A DNA stretch of 64,000 nucleotides from Escherichia coli. Its GTDB lineage: Bacteria > Pseudomonadota > Gammaproteobacteria > Enterobacterales > Enterobacteriaceae. The position numbers were made by a program, and so were the translations under genes. Below, in pieces: positions 13,308 to 64,000 of the stretch. The notes under the pieces are model-generated. The model ran no database searches and was not told the DNA's origin. It was given only the letters and a program-made list of their open reading frames with translations. Positions within the stretch are counted from its first letter, which is position 1. Each line of letters begins with the position of its first letter. The DNA is taken from NCBI RefSeq assembly GCF_003018115.1, contig NZ_CP027457.1. One strand, 5' to 3'.

Positions 13308-13314
13308 GTCGATT

Positions 13315-19333: not shown

Positions 19334-19819
19334 ATGAAAAAATCACTGTTAATTATCCCACTTCTGCTGGTTGGATGCGCAAAAGTAAGTGACTATCAAG
19401 CAAGTTGCGAACAACGCTATCAAAAGCTTAGCGATATGGCTAATTGCCTTGATGCCAGTGTGAAGAACGACTCACGCATGGCATCAGCACCAACACCTAA
19501 GCTGTATGTCCTTGCTGCAAAGGTGCTCGGGCAAGGTGTCGATGAAGGAAAGATAAGTGACGCACAGGCAAGACTTGAGCTTCAGAATCTTTATGTTCAA
19601 TTACAAAGCCAAGAACAAGCCCAACAAATAGCACAAAGCCAAGCATTCCAGCAGGCTTTATTGAATTATCAGGCTGTAAACACAATGCAAGCGATCGAGC
19701 AAAAAGCGCGCCAGCCTGTTATAACTCAACCTTACCCAACACGCGTTGACACATATACAAACTGCAATTCAGGATTTGGAAACACGGTAACATGCAACAG
19801 TAGCAGTAACATCAGATAA
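19334..19819 (+). CDS. Lipoprotein of unknown function (in the P22 sieA position)
   Basis: Signal peptide plus lipobox MKKSLLIIPLLLVGC; Q-rich mature region. Confidence 0.55.
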   Translation: MKKSLLIIPLLLVGCAKVSDYQASCEQRYQKLSDMANCLDASVKNDSRMASAPTPKLYVLAAKVLGQGVDEGKISDAQARLELQNLYVQLQSQEQAQQIAQSQAFQQALLNYQAVNTMQAIEQKARQPVITQPYPTRVDTYTNCNSGFGNTVTCNSSSNIR

Positions 19820-42526: not shown

Positions 42527-43344
42527 GCAATCCCCCTGTCTGCAAACTTCCCTTCCCGAACTCCCGTTAACGAGTCTTCCCTCAGCAGGTAATCAAAATC
42601 AGCCGTCCAGCCCGTGTCGTTGTCTCCGAAGTAAAACGGCTTGGCCTGATGCACAAACGCCCTGACATACGCTCTGAAACCGTCCACATTTGGCGTTTTC
42701 AGTTGCGGGATGATTTTCTTCAGGCGGCGTTTGCGTTTCTCGTTGACCGCAACAGCGTGTGGCAGTCTGTCACCGACTTCGGTGTTGTAGGCGTTCAGGA
42801 AGGATTCGTAGTCGATTCGTTCTGCCTTGCGACGTTCAGGTTTAACCTGCCCATCGCCACCCCCGTTAGGGGGTAAGGGGGTATTTGTATTTATTGTCTT
42901 TTGTATATTGTCTTTTGTGTTTAGCTGACTTGGCTTATACCCATTAGCCGACTTGGCTAATGTTTTATTAGCTGTTTTAGCTAATGTTAAGCTGTCATGG
43001 CTAATCCACTGAGAAACCACCTTGTTCACTCCGATTTTCACGCCATCAGCAATGAGGAATTTACGCTCGATAAGCTGGCGCTTGGCAGCGCAAACATGAG
43101 TGTGATGAATACCTGTCATGGCTGCTATCTGCGTGTTTGTGAGTCGATCCATCGGCTTATTGAATCCGTATGTCTTGCGCATGATAGCGAGCATCACCTT
43201 CATCTGCCGGACGGTTAAATCAGCCATCAGCAGACTGTCGGTAATCTCGTTAGCAACGCGCATGAAACCATCTTCGGTATCTGCCACGCGATGCTCCACG
43301 ACCTCCAGTTGAGGCCTGTAATCAGCTAACTTAACGACGCCCAT
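42523..43344 (-). CDS. Replication initiation protein with lambda O-like N-terminal domain (P22 gene 18-like)
   Basis: ...[36 protein letters not shown]... resembles the lambda O N-terminus; iterons inside the gene. Confidence 0.85.
42875..43000. repeat. ori: Replication origin: iterons and AT-rich tract inside the O-like gene
   Basis: Direct repeats TTAGCTGACTTGGCTTA / TTAGCCGACTTGGCTAA / TTAGCTGTTTTAGCTAA / TTAAGCTGTCATGGCTAA adjacent to an AT-rich stretch. Confidence 0.7.
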
Positions 43345-43526
43345 GTTTCACTCCTGCTTTGGCTAGTCTGTAAACACCAACAAGGCGCTCTGCGAACGCC
43401 CTGTTATTTGCTGCGGCTACCACTAATCCCTCAGGTGAATCAGGGTGTCGAATCTCTTCTTTTTCCTGGTATTTCTTACGACGTTTTGTCATAATTACTC
43501 CTGTGGATTGATCCAGTCTTTCTACA

Positions 43527-43802
43527 TCAGGCCTCGAAGAATTCGCCGTTCTTCGGGGCTTTTTCTTTTGTCAGCATTCTGGCTACTTTCTTAGCCAGTT
43601 CCGCCAACTCCTCGTCTTCAACACCCCATTCAAGAACAGCCAGAAGCATTCCCATTTTTGGGATGAAGCTGTCTTTCCATCGCGAAATTTGCGATTCATT
43701 AATTCCTAACGCGTCGGCAACCTTTCGCTGGCCACGTACAGCAATTCGATTCAGGATGTTGCTTGTAATTGCATTCGCTTTCTTGCGAGTACTTGTAAGT
43801 TC
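43527..43802 (-). CDS. cII: CII-like transcriptional activator
   Basis: ...GINESQISRWKDSFIPKMGMLLAVLEWGVEDEELAELAKKVARMLT... resembles lambda CII; start approximate. Confidence 0.8.
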   Translation of the reverse strand, partial: ELTSTRKKANAITSNILNRIAVRGQRKVADALGINESQISRWKDSFIPKMGMLLAVLEWGVEDEELAELAKKVARMLTKEKAPKNGEFFEA

Positions 43803-43862
43803 CATATGTAAGTATTTCCTTAACAAATAAGAAGTTATGCGCATCAACTTATGCGCGTTGTA

Positions 43863-43908
43863 TTCCCGCATTTCGGCGGGAATGAGGACCATGACTGTTA
43901 AAGAGCGG
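43863..43908 (-). promoter_or_regulatory. nutR (boxA CGCTCTTTAACA, boxB TTCCCGCCGAAATGCGGGAA)
   Basis: boxA/boxB pair just downstream of cro on the transcribed strand; same boxB as the nutL candidate. Confidence 0.6.
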
Positions 43909-43913
43909 TGTTA

Positions 43914-44108
43914 CTATTTGTTTTTCTTGTTGCTTGGGAAAGGACGAACTTCCTCTCCAATCACACTGCCATCAGGCTTTACCGTAACCATGATGTTACG
44001 GCCTGCCAGAATGGCCTTGCTGATAGCGCACTGGATTACACCAAAGTCACTGGCTGCTTTAGCCTGTCCATGGATTTTGGCGTAATCGGCAAGTGTCATT
44101 CGAATCAT
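43914..44108 (-). CDS. cro: Cro repressor
   Basis: Translation [62 protein letters not shown] resembles lambda Cro; GGAG RBS. Confidence 0.85.
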
Positions 44109-44139
44109 ATGCACTCTCCGTTATTAACCATGAACAAAG

Positions 44140-44203
44140 AATACTACAGGTATTCAAAGCAATCAATACTCAGGGTATTTTTAGTTTAAGTACCTTAGCT
44201 ATT
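44140..44203. promoter_or_regulatory. Right operator OR1-OR3 with divergent promoters pR/pRM
   Basis: 15-bp palindromes AATACTACAGGTATT (44140-44154), AATACTCAGGGTATT (44165-44179) and weaker AGTACCTTAGCTATT (44189-44203); pR -35 TTGATT / -10 TATTCT on the minus strand. Confidence 0.65.
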
Positions 44204-44214
44204 AGAATTAAGCT

Positions 44215-44931
44215 ATGGAAAATAAAAAATCACTGACGACAGAACAGCTCGAAGACGCTAAGCGGCTTAAGGCTTTGTATGAGTCAAAAAAGAAAGAATT
44301 GGGAATAACCCAATACTCAATCGCTGATGAACTGGGTATCACCCAAGGAGCGGTAGGGCATTATCTTAATGGCAGAAACGCGCTAAACGTTGAGGTCGCA
44401 TCTGGTTTTGCACGTTTGTTGCAAGTCTCAATTGCTGATTTTAGCCAGTCAATTGCTGCCAAGGTTGCAGAACAGGCAGAAAGCCTTAAGAGCGATGCCA
44501 ACGTAAGGTATGCAGGGGAATACAGAGCAGGAAAGAGGTATCCGGTGTTAAGCAGTATCCAGGCTGGCTCGTGGTGTGAAGCATGCGAACCATACACCAT
44601 TAAAGACATAGATGTTTGGCTTGAGTCTGACGCGCATATTCAAGGTAATGCGTTCTGGCTTAAAGTGGAAGGTGATTCAATGACGGCACCGGTTGGGTTA
44701 AGCATTCCAGAGGGAACATTCGTTCTTTTCGATACCGGAAGGGAGGCGATCAACGGCAGCTTGGTCATAGCAAAACTTTCTGACTCTAACGAAGCAACAT
44801 TCAAGAAGCTGATAATCGACGGCGGAAATAAATACCTCAAGGGACTTAATCCTGCATGGCCTCTCGTGCCAATCAATGGAAACTGCAAGATTATAGGCGT
44901 TGCAATTGAGACAAAACTAAGGCTGGTTTGA
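44215..44931 (+). CDS. cI: CI repressor (HTH plus LexA-like S24 autocleavage domain)
   Basis: 238 aa; ...LTTEQLEDAKRLKALYESKKKELGITQYSIADELG... and C-terminal ...AFWLKVEGDSMTAP... resemble lambda CI. Confidence 0.9.
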   Translation: MENKKSLTTEQLEDAKRLKALYESKKKELGITQYSIADELGITQGAVGHYLNGRNALNVEVASGFARLLQVSIADFSQSIAAKVAEQAESLKSDANVRYAGEYRAGKRYPVLSSIQAGSWCEACEPYTIKDIDVWLESDAHIQGNAFWLKVEGDSMTAPVGLSIPEGTFVLFDTGREAINGSLVIAKLSDSNEATFKKLIIDGGNKYLKGLNPAWPLVPINGNCKIIGVAIETKLRLV

Positions 44932-44945
44932 TCACGCAAGGGGCG

Positions 44946-45317
44946 ATTATGGTTGGAACCGCTATAGCAAGCTTTTTTGGGATGTTGGCAATCTCGACAA
45001 TTTACGGCTTAGCGCATGCTTTTATTGCGAAATCTCTATCAGAAAAAATAAGCCAGGCTTGGGCGCATAGATCAGCTCGTTTCATGATTCTGGTGATCAT
45101 AGCAATACAAGGGATATCTGCATTTATCCTCTATGGATCAAGCTTATACCTATTGTATCAAGGCGCGACATTTACGCCTTACACCAGTGATTACGGAACT
45201 CTATACGATGGTAGTGAAGACATCACTGTGGCTTGGATCGTCTTTGGTTTATCTATGGCCGTGTCTGTTGTAGCAGACATCATTAAGGTAATTCTCGTCT
45301 TAACCTTCGCTGACTAA
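44946..45317 (+). CDS. Small multi-pass membrane protein in the cI operon (rexAB position); function unknown
   Basis: About 123-aa ORF with 3-4 predicted TM helices beginning just after the cI stop; precedes OL/pL. Confidence 0.55.
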   Translation: MMVGTAIASFFGMLAISTIYGLAHAFIAKSLSEKISQAWAHRSARFMILVIIAIQGISAFILYGSSLYLLYQGATFTPYTSDYGTLYDGSEDITVAWIVFGLSMAVSVVADIIKVILVLTFAD

Positions 45318-45403
45318 CCTATAATCCCGGCAGCAATAGCTATCGGGATCCACTTCACATATCCCGCATAAAAAGCACTGAACAAGCAGACACCGAAAAA
45401 ATA

Positions 45404-45490
45404 AATATCCTTTGTATTCATTTGCTTATCATTATTTCACCAAAAATAAATACCTTGGGTATTTACACAATAAAATACCTACAGTATTCT
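45404..45490 (+). promoter_or_regulatory. Left operator OL1-OL3 and pL promoter
   Basis: AATATCCTTTGTATT (45404-45418), AATACCTTGGGTATT (45449-45463), AATACCTACAGTATT (45474-45488); -35 TTTACA / -10 TATTCT overlapping OL1. Confidence 0.65.
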
Positions 45491-45536
45491 TTAGCCATCA
45501 GCAGGACGCTGGAAGCCAAACGGAACAGATTGGCAG

Positions 45537-45577
45537 GCTCTTTAACATTGATGGGATTGTCCCGCCGAAATGCGGGA
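45537..45577 (+). promoter_or_regulatory. nutL (boxA GCTCTTTAACA, boxB TCCCGCCGAAATGCGGGA)
   Basis: boxA closely matching the rrn-type consensus followed by a hairpin, between pL and N. Confidence 0.6.
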
Positions 45578-45684
45578 ACCAAAGAGTAGTTGGCTTTGGG
45601 GTGACGTGAAGTGCAGCTGCACGACGGCAACCGGAAGATAAGCACCCGGCGCGTCACCGCCAAAGTCAATCATCGGAGGTCAAC

Positions 45685-45990
45685 ATGACAGTAGTCATTA
45701 CATATCTGGCTGACGATAACGCCAGAAATCGCCGCAGAGCACGCAGACAGGCTCAACGTGAACAGGCAATGCAAGAGCAGCGACTGGCGCGAAAAATTGC
45801 GCTAAAGCTCTCTGGTTGCGTCAGGGCAGACAAAGCAGCATCACTCGGAAGCCTTCGCTGCCAGAAGGCAGAAGAAGTCGAGCGTAAACAGAACCGTATT
45901 TACTACCGCAAGCCACGCAGTGAAATGGGTGTGACATGCTCAGGCCGCCAGAAGCAACGCGGAAAATCAATTCCAGCTTATTACGATTGA
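45685..45990 (+). CDS. N: N antitermination protein
   Basis: Arginine-rich motif NARNRRRARRQAQRE near the N-terminus; C-terminus ...GVTCSGRQKQRGKSIP resembles lambda N. Confidence 0.8.
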   Translation: MTVVITYLADDNARNRRRARRQAQREQAMQEQRLARKIALKLSGCVRADKAASLGSLRCQKAEEVERKQNRIYYRKPRSEMGVTCSGRQKQRGKSIPAYYD

Positions 45991-45998
45991 GGTTAATG

Positions 45999-46265
45999 AT
46001 GAAATTCAAATTGAACGATGAAGTTAAATGGTCTAGCTCATCAAACGGTGTAACGAAGGTAAAAATCGGGTTTATCGTTGAGGTGATTCCTCCTGGTGTC
46101 AACGTAAAAAAATTCGAACTAGGCCGTCTGCTAGATGCACCTGGCCTTCCGAGGAAAGAAGAGAGCTATATAGTTTGTGTAGGTCCAAGACCAGGATCTC
46201 GTGCCAAGCCAAAATATTACTGGCCGCGAGTTAATAACCTGCGTCGCTTACACGATGACAAATAG
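45999..46265 (+). CDS. Hypothetical early protein
   Basis: About 88-aa ORF immediately after N. Confidence 0.4.
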   Translation: MKFKLNDEVKWSSSSNGVTKVKIGFIVEVIPPGVNVKKFELGRLLDAPGLPRKEESYIVCVGPRPGSRAKPKYYWPRVNNLRRLHDDK

Positions 46266-46320
46266 AAGTGAGTATCCTTGTTTTACTTTTTCGCAGCAAA
46301 CCACTTATTTGAGGTGAGAT

Positions 46321-46572
46321 ATGGAATTTCATGAAAGTGCGATTTGTGATTTTCGCGCTAACGCAAATTCAGTAAAACCACAGCCAATTGCAGTTCTTTT
46401 TAAAACAATGGGTGCGTGGGCTGTTTTATGCTTCGCCGCTGATGACACTGACGCAAGAATGGCAATAGGCCAAGAGATGGAGATGGACCCGACAAACGAT
46501 GAATTCATAATTTATGGCGCTCCATCTAATTACTTACTTGATACCTGCAACATTTACAACAAGGCTGCCTGA
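46321..46572 (+). CDS. Hypothetical early protein
   Basis: 83-aa ORF. Confidence 0.4.
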   Translation: MEFHESAICDFRANANSVKPQPIAVLFKTMGAWAVLCFAADDTDARMAIGQEMEMDPTNDEFIIYGAPSNYLLDTCNIYNKAA

Positions 46573-46611
46573 TGGTGGCCTTTATTTTTGGCATAAACAA
46601 CAGAGGCTAAC

Positions 46612-46908
46612 ATGGAATTTAAAGGTACTAAAGGTAAGTGGGAAATAATGATTGATGGCGATGAGATTAAAATCATCCAGGCAGACTCACTTGAAAATGG
46701 CGCAGGCTGGCGTTCGTATATTGCAATCTGTGAGGAAGTTCAATGCATTGAAGATGCCAATCTAATAGCGGCAGCGCCTGACCTTCTCGAAGCACTTCAG
46801 TTATTACTTAAGCAAACCAAAAATAGAACAACGACAACATATCCAGAATGGTATGGAGCTGTTAATAAAGGTATCGCAGCAATCAGAAAAGCTCTTGGGG
46901 ATAAGTAA
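46612..46908 (+). CDS. Hypothetical early protein
   Basis: 98-aa ORF. Confidence 0.4.
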   Translation: MEFKGTKGKWEIMIDGDEIKIIQADSLENGAGWRSYIAICEEVQCIEDANLIAAAPDLLEALQLLLKQTKNRTTTTYPEWYGAVNKGIAAIRKALGDK

Positions 46909-47096
46909 TGAAAGTAAAAATAACTGCTTCTAATACCAGTTTTGTTAGTGTTGGTGATATTACAGAAGTAATAACAAACCATGATGGAACACAAGTTATG
47001 TGGTCTGATTTTTGTAAAAGATATGAGCGAGTCACTTGGTGTAAACTCGTATGGGGAGTCGAATACGAAGAATTACCTGAAATGCATGACGAATAA
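46908..47096 (+). CDS. Hypothetical early protein
   Basis: 62-aa ORF translationally coupled to the preceding gene. Confidence 0.35.
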   Translation: MKVKITASNTSFVSVGDITEVITNHDGTQVMWSDFCKRYERVTWCKLVWGVEYEELPEMHDE

Positions 47097-47281
47097 GCAC
47101 TGTGTATTCATTCCAACGAGTGAATACACGGAGCAATGTTGCTCGTAACTAAACAGGAGCCGACTTGTTCTGATTATTGGAAATCTTCTTTGCCCTCCAG
47201 TGTGAGGGCTTTTTTATATGCATACCAATAACGCTTCACTCGAGGCGTTTTCGTTATGCAATCAAACAGAAGGAGCATCCT

Positions 47282-47452
47282 ATGCAACAGTTCGCTATTG
47301 CAGGGGCGGCATCGGTTCGCCCTTTCAACCCGATTTTATCGGTACAGCATTCACGAAAAAACATTCTAACCGGAGCAGACTTTAAACAACCAAGAATGAA
47401 AAGTTTGCTCGAAAAGCTTTGGGATATTTTGAAACAACAAGGCCGCCCATGA
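47282..47452 (+). CDS. cIII: CIII-like protein (FtsH inhibitor)
   Basis: Translation MQQFAIAGAASVRPF...KSLLEKLWDILKQQGRP resembles lambda CIII; AAGGAG RBS. Confidence 0.7.
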   Translation: MQQFAIAGAASVRPFNPILSVQHSRKNILTGADFKQPRMKSLLEKLWDILKQQGRP

Positions 47453-47533
47453 GTTTTACAGATAGCTGGTCAGACGAAGAATTCATTCGTCAGATGAACA
47501 AAATGCTCAATCAGCACAAAGAACAGGAGAAAG

Positions 47534-47845
47534 ATGATGATTCTGACTCTGAATGATAAGCGTGAAATATCGCAAATAATCGCAAGTTTTACTGATGAAG
47601 ATTACGAACGAATCAACAGTGAAGTTGATCGCCTCTGCAAACGTTGCGACCCAATAAGCGAAATGCTTCGATCATATAAACCAGATGAACACACTAAGGA
47701 CGCTATCGACTGGCTGGAAGATGATGACTGTAACTATCAGGAAAAAGCCGCTGAATGGTTCTGGGATGCAATAACCGAAAGAGTTAAGGCTGAATATGCC
47801 TTCGCAATATTCAAACGCAGACATATTTATGGAGAAGCTGCATGA
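47534..47845 (+). CDS. Hypothetical protein upstream of recT (possible Abc2/Kil-like function)
   Basis: 103-aa acidic ORF; position analogous to anti-RecBCD/kil genes in P22 and lambda; no direct motif evidence. Confidence 0.4.
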   Translation: MMILTLNDKREISQIIASFTDEDYERINSEVDRLCKRCDPISEMLRSYKPDEHTKDAIDWLEDDDCNYQEKAAEWFWDAITERVKAEYAFAIFKRRHIYGEAA

Positions 47846-52801: not shown

Positions 52802-53020
52802 ATGTACTTGACACTTCAGGAGTGGAACGCACGCCAGCGACGCCCAAGAAGCCTTGAAACAGTTCGTCGATGGGTGCGCGAATGCAGGATATTCCCACCA
52901 CCGGTTAAGGATGGAAGAGAGTATCTGTTCCACGAATCAGCGGTAAAGGTTGACTTAAATCGACCAGTAACAGGTAGCCTTTTGAAGAGGATCAGAAATG
53001 GGAAGAAGGCGAAGTCATGA
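52802..53020 (+). CDS. xis: Excisionase Xis (lambda-type)
   Basis: 72-aa translation MYLTLQEWNARQRRPRSLETVRRWVRECRIFPPPVKDGREYLFHESAVKVDL... matches lambda Xis. Confidence 0.95.
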   Translation: MYLTLQEWNARQRRPRSLETVRRWVRECRIFPPPVKDGREYLFHESAVKVDLNRPVTGSLLKRIRNGKKAKS

Positions 53021-54068
53021 GCGCCGGGATTTACCCCCTAACCTTTATATAAGAAACAATGGATATTACTGCTACAGGGACCCAAGGACGGGTAAAGAGT
53101 TCGGATTAGGCAGAGACAGGAGGATAGCAATCACTGAAGCTATACAGGCCAACATTGAGTTATTTTCAGGACACAAACACAAGCCTCTGACAGCGAGAAT
53201 CAACAGTGATAATTCTGTTACGTTACATTCATGGCTTGATCGCTACGAAAAAATCCTCGCCAGCAGAGGAATCAAGCAGAAGACACTCATAAATTACATG
53301 AGCAAAATTAAAGCAATAAGGAGGGGGCTGCCTGATGTTCCACTTGAAGACATCACCACAAAAGAAATTGCGGCAATGCTCAATGGATACATAGACGAGG
53401 GCAAGGCGGCATCAGCCAAGTTAATCAGATCAACACTGAGCGATGCATTCCGAGAGGCTATAGCTGAAGGCCATATAACAACAAACCCGGTCGCTGCTAC
53501 TCGCGCAGCAAAATCAGAGGTAAGGAGATCAAGGCTTACGGCTGACGAATACCTGAAAATTTATCAAGCAGCAGAATCATCACCATGTTGGTTAAGACTT
53601 GCAATGGAACTGGCTGTTGTTACCGGACAGCGAGTTGGTGATTTATGCGAAATGAAGTGGTCTGATATCGTAGATGGATATCTTTATGTCGAGCAAAGCA
53701 AAACAGGCGTAAAAATTGCCATCCCAACAGCATTGCATGTTGATGCTCTCGGAATATCAATGAAGGAAACACTTGATAAATGCAAAGAGATTCTTGGCGG
53801 AGAAACCATAATTGCATCTACTCGTCGTGAACCGCTTTCATCCGGCACAGTATCAAGGTATTTTATGCGCGCACGAAAAGCATCAGGTCTTTCCTTCGAA
53901 GGGGATCCGCCTACCTTTCACGAGTTGCGCAGTTTGTCTGCAAGACTCTATGAGAAGCAGATAAGCGATAAGTTTGCTCAACATCTTCTCGGGCATAAGT
54001 CGGACACCATGGCATCACAGTATCGTGATGACAGAGGCAGGGAGTGGGACAAAATTGAAATCAAATAA
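52998..54068 (+). CDS. int: Integrase Int (tyrosine recombinase, lambda-type)
   Basis: 356-aa translation MGRRRSHERRDLPPNLYIRNNGYYCYRDPRTGKEFGLGRDRRIAITEAIQANIELF... matches lambda Int. Confidence 0.97.
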   Translation: MGRRRSHERRDLPPNLYIRNNGYYCYRDPRTGKEFGLGRDRRIAITEAIQANIELFSGHKHKPLTARINSDNSVTLHSWLDRYEKILASRGIKQKTLINYMSKIKAIRRGLPDVPLEDITTKEIAAMLNGYIDEGKAASAKLIRSTLSDAFREAIAEGHITTNPVAATRAAKSEVRRSRLTADEYLKIYQAAESSPCWLRLAMELAVVTGQRVGDLCEMKWSDIVDGYLYVEQSKTGVKIAIPTALHVDALGISMKETLDKCKEILGGETIIASTRREPLSSGTVSRYFMRARKASGLSFEGDPPTFHELRSLSARLYEKQISDKFAQHLLGHKSDTMASQYRDDRGREWDKIEIK

Positions 54069-54141
54069 TGATTTTATTTTGACTGATAGTGACCTGTTCG
54101 TTGCAACAAATTGATAAGCAATGCTTTTTTATAATGCCAAC

Positions 54142-54156
54142 TTAGTATAAAAAAGC
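54142..54156. repeat. attL: Prophage attachment site core, attL (B-O-P' read on the minus strand)
   Basis: 15-bp lambda core (as reverse complement) with lambda-like P' arm between core and int and bacterial arm on the ybhC side. Confidence 0.85.
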
Positions 54157-54202
54157 AGGCTTCAACGGATTCATTTTTCTATTTCATAGCCCGGAGCAAC
54201 CT

Positions 54203-55486
54203 GTGAACACATTTTCAGTTTCCCGTCTGGCGCTGGCATTGGCTTTTGGCGTGACGCTGACCGCCTGTAGCTCAACACCACCCGATCAACGTCCTTCTGA
54301 TCAAACTGCGCCTGGTACCTCTTCTCGCCCGATTCTGTCGGCAAAAGAAGCGCAGAATTTCGATGCTCAACACTATTATGCATCCCTGACACCAGGTGCT
54401 GCAGCGTGGAATCCGTCCCCGATAACCCTGCCTGCGCAACCTGACTTTGTTGTCGGCCCGGCGGGTACTCAAGGTGTAACGCATACCACGATTCAGGCGG
54501 CGGTAGATGCGGCAATTATCAAGCGCACCAACAAGCGCCAGTATATTGCCGTGATGCCTGGTGAGTATCAGGGAACGGTGTATGTCCCTGCTGCTCCAGG
54601 TGGAATTACTCTGTACGGTACAGGTGAAAAACCGATTGATGTGAAGATTGGGCTTTCCCTTGATGGGGGCATGAGCCCTGCCGACTGGCGTCACGACGTC
54701 AACCCGCGCGGCAAATATATGCCAGGTAAACCAGCGTGGTATATGTACGATAGCTGCCAGCGCAAACGCAGCGACAGTATCGGTGTTCTGTGTTCTGCGG
54801 TCTTCTGGTCACAAAACAATGGCCTGCAACTGCAAAATCTGACCATCGAAAACACGCTGGGCGATAGCGTAGATGCAGGTAACCATCCGGCGGTGGCACT
54901 GCGTACTGACGGTGACCAGGTACAGATTAACAACGTTAACATTCTCGGTCGTCAGAACACCTTCTTTGTCACCAACAGCGGTGTGCAGAACCGTCTGGAA
55001 ACGAATCGTCAGCCGCGTACGCTGGTGACCAACAGCTACATTGAAGGGGATGTGGATATCGTTTCTGGTCGCGGCGCAGTGGTGTTCGATAACACCGAAT
55101 TCCGCGTGGTGAACTCACGTACTCAGCAAGAAGCGTATGTGTTTGCACCGGCTACGCTGTCCAACATCTATTACGGTTTCCTCGCCGTAAACAGCCGTTT
55201 CAATGCTTCCGGTGATGGCGTGGCGCAACTGGGCCGCTCGCTGGATGTTGATGCCAATACCAACGGTCAGGTGGTGATCCGTGATAGCGCCATCAACGAA
55301 GGTTTTAACACGGTTAAACCGTGGGGCGATGCGGTGATCTCTAATCGTCCGTTTGCGGGTAATACCGGCAGCGTTGACGATAGCGACGAAATACAGCGCA
55401 ATCTGAATGACACTAACTACAACCGCATGTGGGAATACAATAACCGCGGCGTGGGTAGCAAAGTGGTTGCAGAGGCGAAGAAGTAA
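54203..55486 (+). CDS. ybhC: Pectinesterase-like outer membrane lipoprotein YbhC
   Basis: 427 aa; signal peptide plus lipobox LTAC; right-handed beta-helix-like repeats. Confidence 0.85.
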   Translation: MNTFSVSRLALALAFGVTLTACSSTPPDQRPSDQTAPGTSSRPILSAKEAQNFDAQHYYASLTPGAAAWNPSPITLPAQPDFVVGPAGTQGVTHTTIQAAVDAAIIKRTNKRQYIAVMPGEYQGTVYVPAAPGGITLYGTGEKPIDVKIGLSLDGGMSPADWRHDVNPRGKYMPGKPAWYMYDSCQRKRSDSIGVLCSAVFWSQNNGLQLQNLTIENTLGDSVDAGNHPAVALRTDGDQVQINNVNILGRQNTFFVTNSGVQNRLETNRQPRTLVTNSYIEGDVDIVSGRGAVVFDNTEFRVVNSRTQQEAYVFAPATLSNIYYGFLAVNSRFNASGDGVAQLGRSLDVDANTNGQVVIRDSAINEGFNTVKPWGDAVISNRPFAGNTGSVDDSDEIQRNLNDTNYNRMWEYNNRGVGSKVVAEAKK

Positions 55487-55499
55487 GAGCTATTAACTA

Positions 55500-55620
<121 letters not shown>

Positions 55621-55626
55621 CGCTTT

Positions 55627-57888
55627 TTACATCTGACGGTTTTTATTGAAGTTAATCAAACTACCCGCCTTGATAATCTCGCGCTCTTCAGCAGTCAGAC
55701 TTTCCATATAGAGCGTAATTTCCGTTACCGGCGCATCTTCATGGATCACATAACCTTTAAACGTCGTACCCGGATTATCCAGCGCCGCTTTAATGCCAGG
55801 GATGTAAATGTAATCCCCCACTTCAAAGGTTGGCACTTCCGCCATTTGCAGCGGTAACATCCCCCAGTTGATGACGTTAGAACGATAGCGTTTAGTCGCG
55901 TACTCCTCGGCAATATTCGCCAGACCGCCAATCACACGCTGGCAGCTCGCCGCCTGTTCACGCGCAGAACCATCGCCTGGTTTCACCGCATAGACCATGC
56001 TGCCAATTTCAGTTTGCAGCGGATCAATATGCTCCTGACCAGCAATCTGCTTAATGCGCGCAAACACCTCTGTCAGCTCGCTGACATTCCCCGCCAGACG
56101 CTGATTTTCCAGCTCAGCAGTCGCTTTACTTCTGCCAACATAACCGGGATCGCGGCGAGACAGGGTAAACTCCGCCAGACCAATCGGATTTGAACGATAA
56201 GAAGAGGTTTCACCGGAAGGGATCAGTTCGTCGGTGGTGGTCACTTCGTCGAGGATCTTCGAGCACACTTTGAGGACGATATTGTCAGTCAGCGCACCTA
56301 ATTCCGGCCAGTCTTTAATGTTCGGTCCGTAAATCAGCGGTTGCTGAGTTGCCCCTTTCACAAAGCCCTGATAAACACGGTTTTTATACGGCGTTACATC
56401 GAAGGCGTACTCCGGCACGTTGTCCCAGCAATCGAGTTCGCTGGCAGAAGTTAAATAGCCACCGTTTCCCGCAGTCGCAGCGATAGAACGAGCGTCCATC
56501 AACGCCACCGCTGACATCTGCCCATTAGCTGGCTTAGAGCCTTCGCGGTTCGGGAAGTTACGCGTGGTGTGGCGAATACTTAAACCGTTGTTGATTGGCG
56601 TATCGCCCGCGCCAAAGCATGGGCCGCAGAACGCGGTTCTGATGATTGCGCCTGCGCCAATCAAATCTGCTACCACACCTTTTTTGGCGAGATCCATAAA
56701 CACCGGCTGTGATGACGGGTAAACCGCCAGCGAGAAGGTGTCATTGCCACAGGATTGACCGCGCAGTGCATTCGCCGCCGCGATGACGTTTTCGTAGTTA
56801 CCGCCAGAACAGCCCGCGATAATCCCCTGCTGCACTTTCAGGCGACCATTTTCCACTTTATCCAGCAGCGAGAGTTTGGCTTTACCGTGCGCCACGCGCT
56901 CGGACTCAATTTCAATCTCACGTAGAATGTCGGTCAGGTTCTGGTTCAGCGTGTCGATTTCATACACGTTGCTCGGGTGGAACGGCAGCGCAATCATTGG
57001 TTTGATGGCGCTTAAATCAACGCTGATGCAGCCATCGTAGTACGCCATCGGTTGAGGGTTAAGCTGGCAGTAATCCTGGCCGCGACCGTGCAGCGCCAGC
57101 CAGTTATGCACTTCTTCATCGGTTTGCCAGACAGAACTTAAACAGGTCGTTTCAGTGGTCATAACGTCAACACTGTTACGGAAATCGGTAGAGAGCGCAG
57201 CAATACCGGGACCTACGAATTCCATCACTTTGTTTTTGACGTAGCCGTTTTTGAACACGGCACCGATGATAGCCAGCGCCACATCCTGCGGCCCCACATA
57301 CGGCGCTGGTTTTCCGGTCAGATGCACCGCAACAACTCCCGGATAGTCGATATCCCAGGTGTCATTAAGCAATTGTTTTACCAACTCGCCGCCGCCCTCA
57401 CCGACTGCCATTGTCCCTAATGCACCGTAACGGGTGTGACTGTCTGACCCGAGGATCATTTTGCCGCCACCTGCCATCATCTCACGCATATATTGATGGA
57501 TGACCGCAATATGCGGAGGCACAAAAATACCGCCATAACGCTGAGCCGCCGATAAACCAAAAACATGGTCATCACCGTTAATGGTGCCGCCGACGGCGCA
57601 AAGTGAGTTATGGCAGTTGGTCAGCACATACGGCAGCGGGAAACGTTCCATACCGGACGCTTTAGCGGTCTGTACTATACCAACAAAGGTAATATCGTGA
57701 GAGGCTAATGAATCAAACTTAATTTTAAGTTTATCCATATTTCCGGACGTATTATGAGAAGAGAGAATAGACCAGGCAATAGTGCCTTTTTTGGCTTCTT
57801 CTTTTTTAATTTCGCCGGTGAAATGTTCTTCGGCAATTATTTCGTTATTACTGGCGAGAAACACGCCTTTTTCAGATAACTTGATCAT
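55627..57888 (-). CDS. ybhJ: Aconitase-family hydratase YbhJ
   Basis: About 753 aa, aconitase-like; position between ybhI and ybhC. Confidence 0.8.
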
Positions 57889-58070
57889 TAAATGCTCCAG
57901 ATATCTGCGCACCGTGAAGTGCGCAAAAAGATAATAAATGGATATACTCTAAATAATTCGAGTTGCAGGAAGGCGACAAGCGAGTGAATCCCCAGGAGCT
58001 TACATAAGTAAGTGACTGGGGTGAGCGAACGCAGACTCAGCACATGCAACTTGAAGTATGACGAGTATAT

Positions 58071-59504
58071 TTACAGCATGTTCCAGCCGATCAGCATATT
58101 CCACCACCACACTCCGAGGGTGATATGCACCAGGAAGGTTAATATCGTCAGTACCGCACCGACCAACCACCAGGATTTAATATCGTTATAACCCACGCCA
58201 AAGATGACCGGACCTGCCGCGCCGCCATAGTGAGTAACCATGCCGCCATAGGAGTTGGAGAACAACAGTGCCAGCGCGGTTAACATTAACGGTGCGCCGG
58301 AGACGTTCGCCAGCATGGCAAATACCGGTAACATAGCAACGATATAGGCACTACCGGAAGCGAAGAAATAACGCACGATGATGCTGAGGAAAATAATAAC
58401 GAAGAAAGCAACGTTACCGTGACCATCAAATGCCAGGTTATTTTTAAAGACTTCAGCTAACCATTCGAAAAATTTAACTTTCGATAATAAGGAGCTTAAG
58501 CCGATAATACCGCCGTACCAGATTAAGGTATTCCAGCCGCCTTTATTTTTAACCACGTCTTCCCAGGTAACGATACCCAGCAGCAGCATAGTCGCCATAA
58601 CAACGATTGCCACGGTGGATTCATCAACCCCCAGAGACTTACTGAAAATCCAGCCCAGCAGCGCCAGCACAAAGACACCGAGCAGCATTTTTTCGCGGAT
58701 TTTCATCGGTCCCAGTTCGGCAAGGCCCGCTTTAGCGATGGTTTTGTTATCCACCTTCTTAATTTCTGGTGGATACATGGTGTAAATCACCAGCGGGGTG
58801 ACCAGCAGCATAATGATGCCCGGCAATCCGGCGGCCAGCGCCCATCCACCCCAGCTAATTTGCAGGTGCAGAATGTCGTTGATCATTTTCAGCGCCAGAA
58901 TGTTCCCCGCCATTGCGGTAAAGAACATATAGCTGGTGGTTTTGGTGACCATGTAAATGGACATCATCAGGTAATGTCCGACACGACGCGGACTTTTTTC
59001 CGGTTCGGACCCCAAAGCCACCGCCACGCTGTTGATGATCGGTAACACAATGCCGCCCGCACGCGCGGTGTTAGACGGTGTTGCCGGAGCCAGTACCAGA
59101 TCGAGGAATACCGTAACGTAACCCAGACCCAGCGTGGTGTTACCGATTTTACCAATCAGCAGATAGGCAATACGTTTACCTAAACCGGTGGTCACAAATG
59201 CGGCGCTTAAGGTAAACGCCGAGAACACCAGCCAGGTAGTACCTGAAGAGTAACCGCTTAATACGGCGGTGGTTTTAAACGCACCGTCGGATAAGTTACC
59301 GACCACCACCATGGAGGCAGCAACGGCAATTAACAGTACGACAGGTTCCGGGAAAGGCTTGATAACCAGCCCCACAATGGCCGCCAGGTAAATACCAAAA
59401 AGCACCCACGCCAGTTCGCTTAATCCTGCCGGAGCTGGCATAAAGCCAATAATACATGGGATCGCTAATATGAGAATTAGCTTCCATAACGATTTCTTAT
59501 TCAT
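58071..59504 (-). CDS. ybhI: DASS-family anion:sodium symporter YbhI
   Basis: 477-aa polytopic membrane protein. Confidence 0.8.
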   Translation of the reverse strand: MNKKSLWKLILILAIPCIIGFMPAPAGLSELAWVLFGIYLAAIVGLVIKPFPEPVVLLIAVAASMVVVGNLSDGAFKTTAVLSGYSSGTTWLVFSAFTLSAAFVTTGLGKRIAYLLIGKIGNTTLGLGYVTVFLDLVLAPATPSNTARAGGIVLPIINSVAVALGSEPEKSPRRVGHYLMMSIYMVTKTTSYMFFTAMAGNILALKMINDILHLQISWGGWALAAGLPGIIMLLVTPLVIYTMYPPEIKKVDNKTIAKAGLAELGPMKIREKMLLGVFVLALLGWIFSKSLGVDESTVAIVVMATMLLLGIVTWEDVVKNKGGWNTLIWYGGIIGLSSLLSKVKFFEWLAEVFKNNLAFDGHGNVAFFVIIFLSIIVRYFFASGSAYIVAMLPVFAMLANVSGAPLMLTALALLFSNSYGGMVTHYGGAAGPVIFGVGYNDIKSWWLVGAVLTILTFLVHITLGVWWWNMLIGWNML

Positions 59505-59579
59505 TTAAAATCCTGTTCTTTCTGTATGACTCATACAGAAGTCCTTTATTGATTGTCCTTATCCTGACAACGAATCTTT

Positions 59580-60632
59580 TCAGGGAAGATAAACTTCACC
59601 GGAAAATATTTTTCTGGTCGTCCGAATAACAGATGCGCGTAACGTCGTGGCATCCTGACCTTCATTAGTTAAATGAACGTCGAGCGCACCACTGGGGTGT
59701 TCAATATTGATATTGCCATATCCTACAGAAGGGATGATTTGTCGGGTGACGGTGCCTTCCAATGCACAACTACTGGAAATAGCAATAGCACCGGTTATCG
59801 CCAACGCGCGATGGCAAGAATGCGGCATAAAATAACGCACATTAATTGCCCCGCCTTTCTGCGCTGGAGAAATAAGCACAGGTTTAGGGATAACCATATT
59901 ACTGACATCACCTAAGCCCATTGCTTTACCCGCTTGTAGACGGATAGATTCAATGCGGGCTAATAATGCTTTGTCGGCATCCAGTTCCGCCGGTAATTCA
60001 TAGCCTGTTTTTCCCAGATATTCAGCCGGAATAATGACGACTGGCATCGCCATATCGATACAGGTCACCGGGACATCGTCAAAATAATCAATCTGATTAT
60101 CAGTCGGGAAAACTTTTCCGGTTTTGGTTCCAGCGGCATTCAGGAAAGTGAGCGCAACCGGTGCGGCAGTACCCGGTACGCCGTCAATTCTGGCGCTACC
60201 CTCGTACTCGACAACACCATTTGGCGTTTGCACATCAGCTTCGATGAACGTACCCGTATTGACGTTGCGGATACGTACACGGGTAACTGGCGAAGTCGCT
60301 GCAATCAAACCATTTTCAATGGCGAATGCGCCAACGCCAGACAGCATATTGCCGCAGTTAGGCGTGGTATCGACACGTTGCTCATGGACGATAACTTGAG
60401 CAAACAGATAATCAACATCAGCACGCGGATCGCTGGAACGGCTAATAATGGCGACTTTACTAGTCAGCGGATTACCGCCGCCAATACCGTCAATTTCCAG
60501 ATCGTTACCGGAACCCATAATTGCCATCAATATTTTATCGCGCTGCGTTTGATCTTCGGGTAAATGTTCCGCTAACAGGAACGCGCCCCTCGAGGTTCCA
60601 CCTCGCATCATCACGCAGGGTATTTTTTTCAT
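59580..60632 (-). CDS. ybhH: PrpF/AcnD-accessory family isomerase YbhH
   Basis: 350-aa translation MKKIPCVMMRGGTSRGAFLLAEHLPEDQTQRDKILMAIMGSGN... Confidence 0.8.
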   Translation of the reverse strand: MKKIPCVMMRGGTSRGAFLLAEHLPEDQTQRDKILMAIMGSGNDLEIDGIGGGNPLTSKVAIISRSSDPRADVDYLFAQVIVHEQRVDTTPNCGNMLSGVGAFAIENGLIAATSPVTRVRIRNVNTGTFIEADVQTPNGVVEYEGSARIDGVPGTAAPVALTFLNAAGTKTGKVFPTDNQIDYFDDVPVTCIDMAMPVVIIPAEYLGKTGYELPAELDADKALLARIESIRLQAGKAMGLGDVSNMVIPKPVLISPAQKGGAINVRYFMPHSCHRALAITGAIAISSSCALEGTVTRQIIPSVGYGNINIEHPSGALDVHLTNEGQDATTLRASVIRTTRKIFSGEVYLP

Positions 60633-60815
60633 AATAATGCCCTCAATTTAAAAACATAACTTATTGCGATATGGTTACATTAAGGACAAAGCATCTCTAA
60701 TGACTTTAGCTCAACGATTAATAACATTTTTTCATTAATTTAAGTTGGCTAAATGCAGTTAAAATTTTTAACGACCAGCCACCCAAAATCGTCGCTTCCA
60801 TTTTCCGGAGTAATA

Positions 60816-61769
60816 ATGAAGCATGAATTATCAAGTATGAAGGCATTTGTCATACTGGCAGAGTCCAGTTCATTTAACAATGCCGCTAAATTACTCAACA
60901 TTACGCAACCTGCATTAACGCGAAGAATAAAAAAGATGGAGGAAGATTTACATATTCAACTATTTGAGCGTACAACTCGCAAGGTTACGTTAACAAAAGC
61001 AGGAAAAAGGTTGCTCCCGGAGGCGCGGGAATTAATAAAGAAATTCGATGAAACGCTTTTTAATATTCGTGATATGAATGCTTATCATCGTGGTATGGTG
61101 ACGTTAGCGTGTATTCCGACCGCAGTATTTTATTTTTTACCGCTGGCAATCGGTAAATTTAATGAGCTGTATCCCAATATTAAAGTGCGGATTCTGGAAC
61201 AAGGCACGAATAATTGCATGGAATCGGTGCTATGTAACGAATCAGACTTTGGCATAAACATGAACAACGTCACAAATTCATCCATTGATTTTAGCCCACT
61301 GGTCAACGAGCCGTTCGTGCTGGCCTGTCGGCGTGACCATCCATTGGCCAAAAAGCAGCTTGTAGAATGGCAGGAGTTAGTGGGTTACAAAATGATTGGC
61401 GTACGCTCCTCCAGCGGCAACCGACTGTTGATAGAACAACAGCTAGCCGACAAGCCCTGGAAGCTGGACTGGTTTTACGAAGTGCGTCATCTTTCGACGT
61501 CATTAGGACTGGTGGAGGCAGGACTGGGGATTTCAGCGCTTCCTGGTCTGGCAATGCCCCATGCGCCCTATTCTTCGATTATTGGTATCCCACTGGTGGA
61601 ACCCGTTATACGTCGGACATTGGGGATTATTCGCCGCAAAGATGCCGTGCTTTCTCCGGCAGCTGAACGCTTTTTTGCCTTGCTGATTAATTTGTGGACT
61701 GACGATAAAGACAATTTGTGGACCAATATCGTCGAACGCCAGAGACATGCGTTACAGGAGATAGGTTAA
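60816..61769 (+). CDS. ybhD: LysR-family transcriptional regulator YbhD
   Basis: 317 aa from MKHELSSMKAFVILAESSSFNNAAKLLNITQPALTRRIKKMEEDL (HTH). Confidence 0.85.
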   Translation: MKHELSSMKAFVILAESSSFNNAAKLLNITQPALTRRIKKMEEDLHIQLFERTTRKVTLTKAGKRLLPEARELIKKFDETLFNIRDMNAYHRGMVTLACIPTAVFYFLPLAIGKFNELYPNIKVRILEQGTNNCMESVLCNESDFGINMNNVTNSSIDFSPLVNEPFVLACRRDHPLAKKQLVEWQELVGYKMIGVRSSSGNRLLIEQQLADKPWKLDWFYEVRHLSTSLGLVEAGLGISALPGLAMPHAPYSSIIGIPLVEPVIRRTLGIIRRKDAVLSPAAERFFALLINLWTDDKDNLWTNIVERQRHALQEIG

Positions 61770-61809
61770 TACACCGGCGCAGGAGAGACTGCGCCGGGTA
61801 AATCAGCGG

Positions 61810-62841
<1,032 letters not shown>

Positions 62842-62959
62842 CTAAAATTAGTCGCTTTTGGCGGTGAATGCTGAATTAAAACGCAGAATTTTGTCCGATA
62901 GTGGTATCGGTGTACCATTCGCGCAGACGAAAATTCTTAACCTTAATCTGGAATACGCC

Positions 62960-63778
62960 ATGACCACACGCGTGATTGCTCTCGACTTAGACGGCACCTT
63001 ATTGACCCCGAAAAAGACCCTGCTTCCTTCATCGATAGAAGCCCTGGCCCGTGCTCGCGAAGCAGGCTATCGATTAATCATCGTCACAGGTCGCCATCAC
63101 GTCGCTATTCATCCTTTTTATCAGGCGCTGGCGCTGGATACACCTGCTATTTGCTGTAATGGCACCTATTTGTATGATTATCATGCAAAAACCGTGCTGG
63201 AAGCGGACCCAATGCCCGTTAATAAAGCCCTGCAACTCATTGAGATGCTGAATGAACACCACATTCACGGTCTGATGTATGTGGATGATGCAATGGTCTA
63301 TGAGCACCCGACCGGGCATGTCATTCGCACGTCTAACTGGGCGCAAACCCTGCCGCCGGAACAGCGTCCGACTTTCACACAAGTCGCTTCTCTGGCTGAA
63401 ACGGCGCAACAAGTTAACGCCGTATGGAAGTTCGCCCTGACGCACGATGACCTGCCGCAATTGCAGCATTTTGGTAAGCATGTCGAACATGAACTGGGAC
63501 TGGAGTGTGAATGGTCCTGGCACGATCAGGTTGATATTGCACGCGGCGGCAACAGCAAAGGTAAACGTTTGACGAAATGGGTTGAGGCGCAAGGCTGGTC
63601 GATGGAAAACGTCGTGGCGTTCGGCGATAACTTTAATGATATCAGTATGCTGGAAGCCGCTGGTACAGGCGTGGCGATGGGCAACGCCGATGACGCGGTA
63701 AAAGCGCGCGCCAACATTGTGATTGGTGATAACACCACCGACAGCATTGCCCAGTTCATTTATAGCCACCTGATTTAA
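62960..63778 (+). CDS. ybhA: HAD-family phosphatase YbhA (Cof-type)
   Basis: 272 aa from MTTRVIALDLDGTLLTPKK (HAD motif I DLDGT). Confidence 0.88.
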   Translation: MTTRVIALDLDGTLLTPKKTLLPSSIEALARAREAGYRLIIVTGRHHVAIHPFYQALALDTPAICCNGTYLYDYHAKTVLEADPMPVNKALQLIEMLNEHHIHGLMYVDDAMVYEHPTGHVIRTSNWAQTLPPEQRPTFTQVASLAETAQQVNAVWKFALTHDDLPQLQHFGKHVEHELGLECEWSWHDQVDIARGGNSKGKRLTKWVEAQGWSMENVVAFGDNFNDISMLEAAGTGVAMGNADDAVKARANIVIGDNTTDSIAQFIYSHLI

Positions 63779-64000
63779 TCAGGCGGTTATCGACACACTT
63801 TTAATTTGCGCGTACAGCCACAGGCCAGGTTTGATCGCCAGTTCATCCCTGGCCCACGGGCTGATACGCGCCCACAGCGTTTTACCGCCGACTTCCAGTT
63901 CCACTTCCACCTGGCCGTTGTCGTCATAACTATTAACAACTTTTGCCCGCAATACGTTACGAATGCTGGTTTGCTGCGGCGGTTGTAAAACCAGAGAAAC
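63779..64000 (-). CDS. modC: Molybdate ABC transporter ATPase ModC, C-terminal fragment (gene continues beyond the window)
   Basis: Hand-translated minus-strand C-terminus ...[13 protein letters not shown] followed by a stop at 63779-63781. Confidence 0.65.

What the first reader, a model, noticed from the sequence alone, without database searches (positions are those of the whole stretch)
44946..45317. Small polytopic membrane protein co-transcribed with cI in the rexAB position - candidate exclusion/abortive-infection gene
The ORF starts about 15 nt after the cI stop on the same strand and ends before OL/pL, so it should be expressed from pRM in the lysogen, exactly where lambda carries rexA-rexB. 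It is about 123 aa with three to four hydrophobic helices and no recognisable family. This slot in lambdoid prophages is a known hotspot for defence cargo, making it the strongest candidate for an undescribed system in the window.
Basis: inference. Interest (0 to 1): 0.6.

Follow-up and report, generated by a model that had tools for sequence, protein, structure and literature searches.

The report
HkaS: orphan membrane protein behind cI
The ORF is a real, conserved three-helix membrane protein gene (hkaS of phage HK620, listed as "unknown" since 2001) that always sits directly behind one family of prophage repressor genes; it is a fair but untested candidate for a protein that keeps other phages out.

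Summary
A 122-aa ORF (window 44949-45317, +) starts 17 nt after the cI stop, has its own Shine-Dalgarno sequence, and ends 86 nt before the first left-operator site. It is not undescribed as a gene. It is hkaS of coliphage HK620 (99% identical, annotated "unknown") and PHROG 6534 (unknown function).

It matches nothing in Pfam, NCBIfam, PADLOC or the PDB. It has no relative beyond its own family among 1.84 billion representative proteins. It shows no similarity to lambda RexB or P22 SieA.

AlphaFold2 (pLDDT 89) gives three transmembrane helices, a basic cytoplasmic loop and an acidic periplasmic hairpin.

The gene is under purifying selection (dN/dS 0.13-0.22), though weaker than on cI (0.03). 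It is intact in 80 of 80 viral contigs. In 5,426 complete E. coli genomes, hkaS and this cI each occur in 145. A 71%-identical cI in a Serratia phage has no gene in this slot, so hkaS is an accessory gene.

No functional study was found. A stand-alone inner-membrane exclusion protein is my best guess (about 0.35). A host-envelope or physiology factor, a CI-switch modulator or a RexB-like abortive-infection effector are not excluded. Interest is moderate: an ordinary kind of candidate that is easy to test.

The parts
43914..44108 (-). cro (HK620-type)
   Evidence: HK620 annotation mapped onto the window (window = L001 + 42599). ORF listed.
44139..44204 (.). OR1-OR3 operators with the divergent pR and pRM
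   Evidence: HK620 annotation. The pattern AATAYCNNNNGTATT hits 44140-44154 and 44165-44179, against 0.02 hits expected by chance.
44215..44931 (+). cI repressor (HTH_3 + Peptidase_S24), 238 aa
   Evidence: phrog_4 transcriptional repressor, E 3e-49. 99% identical to HK620 cI.
44932..44948 (+). 17-nt cI-hkaS spacer with Shine-Dalgarno AAGGGG (44938-44943)
   Evidence: Sequence. The spacer is 17-19 nt in 80 of 80 loci. AAGGA-type SD sequences occur in the divergent homologues. No promoter or terminator consensus here.
44949..45317 (+). hkaS: 122-aa three-pass inner-membrane protein. TM1 is residues 2-29, the cytoplasmic basic loop and short helix 30-44, TM2 41-74, the acidic periplasmic hairpin about 75-93, TM3 89-121.
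   Evidence: identity. (hydropathy; AF2 pLDDT 89.3). (conservation and selection).
45324..45349 (+). Stem-loop 7 nt after the hkaS stop; probable 3' end structure (terminator or stabiliser) of the cI-hkaS transcript
   Evidence: dG -13.7 kcal/mol, z -4.3. Equivalent hairpins, with unrelated sequence in two of them, occur in L003, L006 and L008. No U-tract, so it is not a canonical intrinsic terminator.
45404..45489 (.). Left operators (45404-45418, 45449-45463, 45474-45488) and pL (45462-45490)
   Evidence: Pattern search, promoter scan, HK620 annotation.
45536..45577 (+). nutL
   Evidence: HK620 annotation mapped onto the window.
45685..45990 (+). N-like antiterminator, first gene of the pL operon
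   Evidence: phrog_271, E 7e-36.

Best explanation
Shown by sequence and comparison: hkaS is the promoter-distal gene of the repressor operon (pRM in the lysogen, pRE during establishment) of HK620-immunity prophages. It encodes a small three-pass inner-membrane protein. The predicted topology is N-terminus in the periplasm, a basic loop in the cytoplasm, an acidic hairpin in the periplasm, and the C-terminus at the cytoplasmic face.

Inferred: it is made continuously in the lysogen. It acts alone, without a cytoplasmic sensor, as a superinfection-exclusion factor at the inner membrane. It would interfere with DNA entry by incoming heteroimmune phages. The mechanism would be either binding the phage's trans-envelope ejection or tape-measure conduit, or masking a host inner-membrane protein that the conduit needs. 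P22 SieA, T4 Imm, HK97 gp15 and lactococcal Sie2009 work this way.
For: Operon position and signals.

Real and selected gene: dN/dS 0.13-0.22, intact in 80 of 80 loci, present and full length in 145 of 5,426 complete E. coli genomes.

Accessory, not core: a 71%-identical cI in Serratia phage OS31 and a 51%-identical cI in mEp213 have no gene between cI and OL. Phage HF4s carries a 1-nt gap in hkaS.

Architecture fits stand-alone exclusion proteins. It is 122 aa with three TM helices and no soluble domain. [quoted passage not shown] There is no partner gene of the RexA type.

The periplasm-exposed hairpin is among the fastest-evolving parts (39% mean identity, against 74-77% for the cytoplasm-facing parts). 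hkaS also evolves faster than cI (52-82% against 85-95% identity). Both are compatible with an arms race at the periplasmic face.

The slot is known to hold prophage defence genes (PMC8585504, PMC2629481).
Against: There is no functional data of any kind, and no homology to any known exclusion or defence protein.

Known injection blockers travel with the virion genes whose relatives they exclude: P22 sieA lies next to gene 16, and HK97 gp15 lies among the tail genes (my own knowledge). hkaS instead travels strictly with cI, through P22-like, lambda-like and Stx-phage virion types. That linkage would suit a function tied to the repressor or independent of virion type.

The best-conserved surfaces face the cytoplasm, not the side where an incoming conduit arrives.

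Faster evolution may simply reflect weaker constraint, since all measured dN/dS values are below 1.
Confidence: 0.35

Rival explanations
1. Lysogenic-conversion factor unrelated to phage defence. A small inner-membrane protein made in the lysogen alters host envelope physiology, for example transport, stress or bile/acid tolerance, or sensitivity to colicins or toxins. It is kept because it helps the host.
For: Prophage-expressed position. Purifying selection and universal intactness. Found in commensal, animal, food and clinical E. coli, and in Salmonella and Hafnia. No defence-family signal. Conserved polar residues inside the membrane (Q54, D110, K113) would suit binding a host membrane protein or an ion.
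Against: Nothing points to a specific host process. The family is confined to one immunity module rather than spread among prophages as a generally useful cargo would be.
Confidence: 0.2
2. Modulator of the CI/Cro switch or of prophage induction. The conserved cytoplasmic loop binds CI, or a factor acting on CI, at the membrane. This would tune the stability of lysogeny, as proposed for lambda RexB, which interacts with CI in two-hybrid assays.
For: Strict one-to-one linkage with a single cI family, kept from near-identical modules out to Salmonella, Hafnia and metagenome modules with saturated dS. The most conserved segments are the cytoplasmic loop (77%) and the cytoplasmic half of TM3 (74%). 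Lambda precedent: RexA/RexB alter induction, and RexB binds CI in BACTH (bioRxiv 10.1101/2021.04.19.439022). Weak structural resemblance to membrane domains fused to XRE-type HTH regulators in Firmicutes and to DUF3955 (E 0.1-1, TM-score 0.6-0.76 on the target).
Against: A close cI relative (71% identity) works without any such gene. Linkage is expected anyway for genes 17 nt apart. The fold resemblance is a two-helix hairpin with non-significant E-values and no Pfam DUF3955 hit. The cytoplasmic loop is only about 15 residues.
Confidence: 0.15
3. RexB-like abortive-infection effector. HkaS oligomerises into a channel that depolarises the membrane when a superinfecting phage triggers it.
For: Same slot as rexB. 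It is a polytopic membrane protein with conserved charged and polar residues inside the bilayer (D110, K113, Q54).
Against: No sequence similarity to RexB (E 3.7). Three helices, not four. No RexA-like sensor gene, and almost no cytoplasmic mass to sense anything. No PADLOC hit.
Confidence: 0.12
4. Hitch-hiker. The ORF has little or no function and persists because it is wedged between cI and its operators.
For: It evolves several-fold faster than cI. One phage (HF4s) has a frameshift. It is an orphan family.
Against: dN/dS is well below 1 across saturated synonymous divergence. Length is conserved at 122 aa with no indels down to 52% identity. It is intact in 80 of 80 loci, each with a conserved SD. 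The predicted fold is confident.
Confidence: 0.1

Closest known systems
HK620 hkaS (AAK28867; Clark et al. 2001) / PHROG 6534
   Same: It is this gene: 99% identical protein, the same neighbours (cro, cI, OL/pL, nutL, N), and a full-length HMM match.
   Different: Nothing structural differs. The family has no assigned function, so membership names the gene but does not explain it.
Lambda rexA-rexB (pRM operon, abortive infection and switch modulation)
   Same: Position between cI and OL, on the same strand as cI, so expression in the lysogen is presumed. RexB is also a small polytopic inner-membrane protein (bioRxiv 10.1101/2021.04.19.439022).
   Different: No RexA counterpart. Three TM helices against four. 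No sequence similarity. No internal pLIT-like promoter detected.
P22 SieA (inner-membrane superinfection exclusion)
   Same: A small stand-alone protein with three predicted TM helices, expressed from the prophage. SieA is shown to sit in the inner membrane and block DNA injection (PMC10461980).
   Different: No sequence similarity. sieA has its own promoter and sits beside the ejection-protein genes, whereas hkaS sits in the repressor operon. In this window the sieA slot holds an unrelated lipoprotein gene.
BstA of Salmonella prophage BTP1
   Same: Encoded directly downstream of the prophage repressor, presumably sharing its promoter. It is a defence gene of P22-like prophages (PMC8585504).
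   Different: BstA, as described in PMC8585504, localises to sites of phage DNA replication, causes abortive infection and has a self-immunity DNA element (aba). HkaS is a 122-aa membrane protein and gave no hit to any PADLOC defence model.
Lactococcal/streptococcal Sie2009 and Ltp (lysogeny-module exclusion proteins)
   Same: Membrane exclusion proteins of temperate phages that block DNA injection (cited in PMC10461980). That they are small and encoded next to the repressor gene in the lysogeny module is my own knowledge.
   Different: Gram-positive hosts, unrelated sequences, and different topology (single anchor or lipoprotein).

Membership tests
HkaS / PHROG 6534 | Full-length match to the family HMM | tested here: met
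   E 2.4e-79, residues 1-122 on profile positions 1-122 of 122. 99.2% identical to HK620 HkaS.
HkaS / PHROG 6534 | Location directly after an HK620-type cI and before OL/N | tested here: met
   Seen in the window, HK620, mEpX2, HK140 and Stx2c phages, in loci L003-L009 and in 80 IMG/VR loci.
Lambda RexB | Sequence similarity to RexB | tested here: not met
   BLASTP E 3.7. No RexB family among the Pfam hits.
Lambda RexB | Four transmembrane segments with both termini in the cytoplasm | tested here: not met
   Three helices in the hydropathy profile and the AF2 model. The RexB topology is as described in bioRxiv 10.1101/2021.04.19.439022.
Lambda RexB | Partner sensor gene rexA in the same operon | tested here: not met
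   Only 17 nt separate cI and hkaS, and no other conserved ORF lies before OL.
Lambda RexB | Promoter-distal position in the cI operon, upstream of OL | tested here: met
P22 SieA | Sequence similarity to SieA | tested here: not met
   BLASTP E 26.
P22 SieA | Blocks DNA injection by related phages from the inner membrane | not testable with these tools
   Needs plating, K+ efflux and fractionation assays as in PMC10461980.
Known anti-phage defence systems (PADLOC-DB v2) | Match to any defence-protein model | tested here: not met
   0 families at E <= 1.
DUF3955 (two-TM domain, also fused to XRE HTH regulators) | Match to the Pfam DUF3955 model | tested here: not met
   DUF3955 is not among the Pfam hits at E <= 10 for the query, nor among the families reported for the eight family members.
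DUF3955 (two-TM domain, also fused to XRE HTH regulators) | Shared fold | tested here: inconclusive
   Many Foldseek hits, but all at E 0.1-1.5 over 58-70 columns (TM-score on the target 0.6-0.76). A helical hairpin is too simple a fold to be diagnostic.
Class I holins (lambda S type) | Three TM helices, N-out/C-in | tested here: met
   Predicted from AF2 and the positive-inside rule. This is a prediction only.
Class I holins (lambda S type) | Charged cytoplasmic C-terminal tail and location in the lysis cassette | tested here: not met
   The protein ends ...ILVLTFAD with no tail. The gene lies in the repressor operon, not among the late genes. The holin features are from my own knowledge.

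The most novel reading that the evidence does not exclude
HkaS is a dedicated membrane partner of its cI repressor. Its conserved cytoplasmic loop would contact CI, or the machinery that inactivates CI, and couple the state of the cell envelope to the lysogeny/induction switch. This would be a split version of the XRE-HTH regulators with fused membrane domains seen in Firmicutes. It would explain why hkaS never separates from this cI family.
Probability: 0.08. Interest if true: 0.7.

Novelty: new member of a known kind. Interest (0 to 1): 0.35.

Why it matters
If HkaS excludes phages, it founds a new sequence family of single-gene inner-membrane exclusion proteins. It is carried by about 2.7% of complete E. 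coli genomes, including prophages of Shiga-toxin-producing E. coli (STEC) and Stx phages, and by Salmonella and Hafnia prophages.

It is small, works in K-12-infecting phages (mEpX2, HK140, HK630), and could be tested in a few weeks.

If it instead tunes the CI switch, it would add to the recent idea that genes in the rex position are regulators of induction as much as defence genes.

If it does neither, it is one more conserved prophage gene of unknown function. The practical gain would be a corrected annotation of the HK620 immunity region.

Tried and rejected
- Family and homology searches (PADLOC, NCBIfam, Pfam on the query and on all members): nothing usable. The only Pfam hits are compositional matches to TM regions (Cation_ATPase_C, i-E 0.006).
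- Profile search of 1.84 billion representative proteins: only the family itself and a 44-aa fragment.
- PDB sequence profile search: 0 hits.
- Foldseek against AFDB50, PDB and BFVD: only the Salmonella orthologue is significant. The rest are generic helical bundles. The DUF3955/XRE-TM resemblance is kept as a lead only.
- Pairwise comparison with lambda RexB and P22 SieA: no similarity.
- The 35-aa hydrophobic ORF on the opposite strand (45314-45421) was considered as a type I toxin-like partner. I rejected it: it is broken by stops in L003, L006 and L008, and its ATG is part of an operator site.
- Positive selection: close alleles differ by too few changes (1-3 non-synonymous, 1-3 synonymous) to say anything. 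Distant pairs give dN/dS well below 1.
- Plasmid copies: none.
- Literature: 'hkaS' with HK620 finds nothing. The Clark 2001 and Degnan 2007 papers are not held in the library. The svsR sRNA reported at the 3' end of a lambdoid cI (PMC12803456) could not be tied to this cI type.
- I ran no further search on linked oligomers or a CI-HkaS fusion. The tool returns no coordinates or PAE, so an interface could not have been judged.

Full report
**What is there.** The window is an E. coli chromosome segment. It runs uvrB, the bio operon, bioA, then a prophage, then ybhC and ybhJ. The prophage is P22-like, spans about 15.6-54.1 kb, and sits at the lambda attachment region. Its immunity region reads, on the + strand:
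- cro (43914-44108, - strand)
- OR1-3
- cI (44215-44931)
- a 17-nt spacer with the Shine-Dalgarno sequence AAGGGG
- the ORF in question (ATG 44949 to TAA 45317, 122 aa)
- a stem-loop (45324-45349)
- three operator-like sites (45404-45488) with pL
- nutL
- an N-like antiterminator (45685-45990)

Otherwise the description is accurate.

**Identity.** The 1.6-kb cro-to-N segment is 99.3% identical to the immunity region of coliphage HK620. It is 98.7-99.9% identical to those of mEpX2, HK630, HK140, HZ41, HF4s, phi296, phi367, 611R6 and two Stx2c phages. In the HK620 record the ORF is hkaS, product 'unknown'. The protein is 99.2% identical. It matches PHROG 6534 ('unknown function') end to end. The gene has therefore been on record since 2001, but its function has not. 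Full-text searches for hkaS with HK620 and related terms found no functional study.

**Is it a real gene?** Yes.
- A search of 5.8 billion proteins found only 12 clusters. The named ones are from E. coli, Hafnia and Salmonella, and identity goes down to 52%.
- All full-length homologues are 122 aa and align without indels.
- In every locus examined the gene starts 17-20 nt after a cI stop, has its own SD, and precedes an N gene.
- dN/dS is 0.13-0.22 where synonymous divergence can be estimated. The value for cI is 0.03.
- In 80 IMG/VR viral contigs the ORF is intact 80 times out of 80.

**Linkage.** Megablast finds hkaS in 145 of 5,426 complete E. coli genomes (146 places). It finds this cI in 145 genomes (146 places) too, and the two are adjacent in the records listed in both tables. 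In the 80 viral loci the block of homology around hkaS never ends between cI and OL. Left ends fall at 43268-44072 and right ends at 45579-46326.

The module occurs in phages with different virion types: P22-like, lambda-like and Stx. The gene is still not needed for a working repressor module. Serratia phage OS31 has a 71%-identical cI followed directly by operators, and mEp213 (51% identical cI) likewise has no gene there. HF4s has a one-base gap in hkaS. So hkaS is an accessory gene that entered one cI lineage and has stayed with it. It is not interchangeable hotspot cargo.

**The protein.** Hydropathy and AlphaFold2 (pLDDT 89.3, pTM 0.76, 8-sequence alignment) agree on the layout:
- three long helices (residues 2-29, 41-74, 89-121)
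- a short helix in a basic loop (K28, K33, R41, R44)
- an acidic, aromatic-rich loop with a small beta-hairpin (residues 75-93)

By the positive-inside rule the N-terminus and the hairpin face the periplasm.

Among five divergent homologues, conservation differs by region:

| Region | Mean pairwise identity |
|---|---|
| Cytoplasmic loop | 77% |
| Periplasmic end of TM2 | 76% |
| Cytoplasmic half of TM3 | 74% |
| TM1 | 54% |
| Periplasmic hairpin | 39% |
| Middle of TM2 | 17.5% |

Invariant polar residues lie inside the bilayer: Q54, S106, D110 and K113.

**Relatives and folds.** None were found.
- PADLOC, NCBIfam and Pfam give nothing meaningful.
- A profile search of 1.84 billion representative proteins returns only the family itself.
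- The PDB sequence search returns nothing.
- Foldseek against AFDB50, PDB and BFVD returns only the Salmonella orthologue at a significant level.
- A run of weak AFDB hits (E 0.1-1.5) to DUF3955 two-helix domains, and to Firmicute XRE-HTH regulators with membrane tails, is noted as a lead and no more.
- There is no similarity to lambda RexB or P22 SieA.

**Expression.** This is inferred, not shown. No promoter-like or terminator-like consensus lies between cI and hkaS. The only promoter-like site in 44000-45800 is pL. A stable hairpin follows the hkaS stop in four divergent modules (dG -13.7 to -18.5 kcal/mol; z -2.3 to -5.4). Its sequence is unrelated in two of them, which marks hkaS as the last gene of the unit. 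The lambda precedent is that rexA and rexB are read from pRM and end at tIMM (bioRxiv 10.1101/2021.04.19.439022). The authors of the epsilon34 genome paper apply the same logic to unknown genes behind a P22-like repressor (PMC2629481).

**What it does.** This cannot be settled in silico. I rank the readings as follows.

1. Stand-alone inner-membrane superinfection exclusion, about 0.35.
   - For: size, three TM helices, no soluble domain and no partner gene. These match P22 SieA (three TM helices, inner membrane, blocks injection alone; PMC10461980) and, from my own knowledge, T4 Imm and HK97 gp15. The periplasmic hairpin is among the most variable parts. The slot is a known home of prophage defence genes (PMC8585504).
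   - Against: strict travel with cI rather than with virion genes, and the best conservation on the cytoplasmic face.
2. A lysogenic-conversion function on host envelope physiology, about 0.2.
3. A modulator of the CI switch through its conserved cytoplasmic loop, about 0.15. This follows the RexB-CI two-hybrid interaction (bioRxiv 10.1101/2021.04.19.439022).
4. A RexB-like abortive-infection channel, about 0.12. The absence of a sensor, the three helices and the lack of similarity all weaken it.
5. A near-functionless hitch-hiker, about 0.1. Purifying selection and universal intactness weaken it.

**Verdict.** The gene is already named. It is an ordinary kind of candidate: a small prophage membrane protein in the rex slot, from an orphan family. 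What sets it apart is how easily it could be tested in K-12 phages and how tightly it is coupled to one repressor lineage.

Noticed in passing
window 19298-19819 (+); likely start ATG 19331: A 161-aa predicted lipoprotein (MKKSLLIIPLLLVGC, lipobox LVGC), phrog_6067 'unknown function', with no PADLOC or NCBIfam hit. It lies on the opposite strand between the gp16-like ejection-protein gene (19910-21907) and the tailspike gene (16851-18923). P22 carries sieA in that slot. It is a second candidate for a prophage-expressed exclusion protein.
   Followed up: partly
window 45399-45442: The HK620 GenBank record places 'tIMM' at 45399-45429 and 'OL3' at 45426-45442. The sequence that matches the operator pattern is 45404-45418 (AATATCCTTTGTATT), inside the annotated 'tIMM', and it is conserved in divergent modules. 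The annotated OL3 (TTATCATTATTTCACCA) does not resemble an operator. The record's OL3 and tIMM are probably misplaced.
   Followed up: partly
window 45324-45349; L003 about 4381-4421; L006 about 4383-4412; L008 about 1832-1859: A stable stem-loop follows the hkaS stop in four divergent modules. Its sequence is unrelated in two of them and none has a clear U-tract. It could be a terminator or a 3' stabiliser of the cI-hkaS mRNA. It is not a canonical intrinsic terminator.
   Followed up: partly
window 45314-45421 (-): A 35-aa very hydrophobic ORF lies antisense, between hkaS and OL, and HF4s annotates it as a gene. It is interrupted by stops in L003, L006 and L008, and its ATG is part of the operator-like site. 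It is a chance ORF.
   Followed up: yes
window 1-15600 and 54100-64000: The host flanks are uvrB, bioDCFB and bioA on one side and ybhC and ybhJ on the other. A prophage with P22-like virion genes therefore occupies the bio-ybhC interval, the classical lambda attB region. Its 356-aa integrase is at 52998-54068.
   Followed up: partly
window 15692-16756 (-): An O-acetyltransferase-like gene (phrog_3333) lies next to the tailspike at the prophage end. It is a likely O-antigen-modifying lysogenic-conversion gene.
   Followed up: no
L015 (HK140) 1811-1936; L016 (Stx2c EH1904); L017 (611R6) 1773-1913: Some carriers of this immunity module have 90-340 bp of extra DNA, and HK140 and 611R6 annotate small ORFs there. 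In those two records the extra DNA lies downstream of hkaS and upstream of N, so the variable spot in this module lies past hkaS.
   Followed up: no
L018 (phage HF4s) 1150-1517: hkaS carries a one-base gap relative to the window and is annotated as a truncated ORF. This is either a sequencing error or a natural knock-out in a viable phage.
   Followed up: partly
window 45936-47845 (+): The early-left genes after N are all PHROG 'unknown function' families (11941, 2471, 1273, 10407, 3486). They have no PADLOC hits where tested (four of the five; 46908-47096 was not tested). There is no sieB-like gene where HK620 has hkaP.
   Followed up: no
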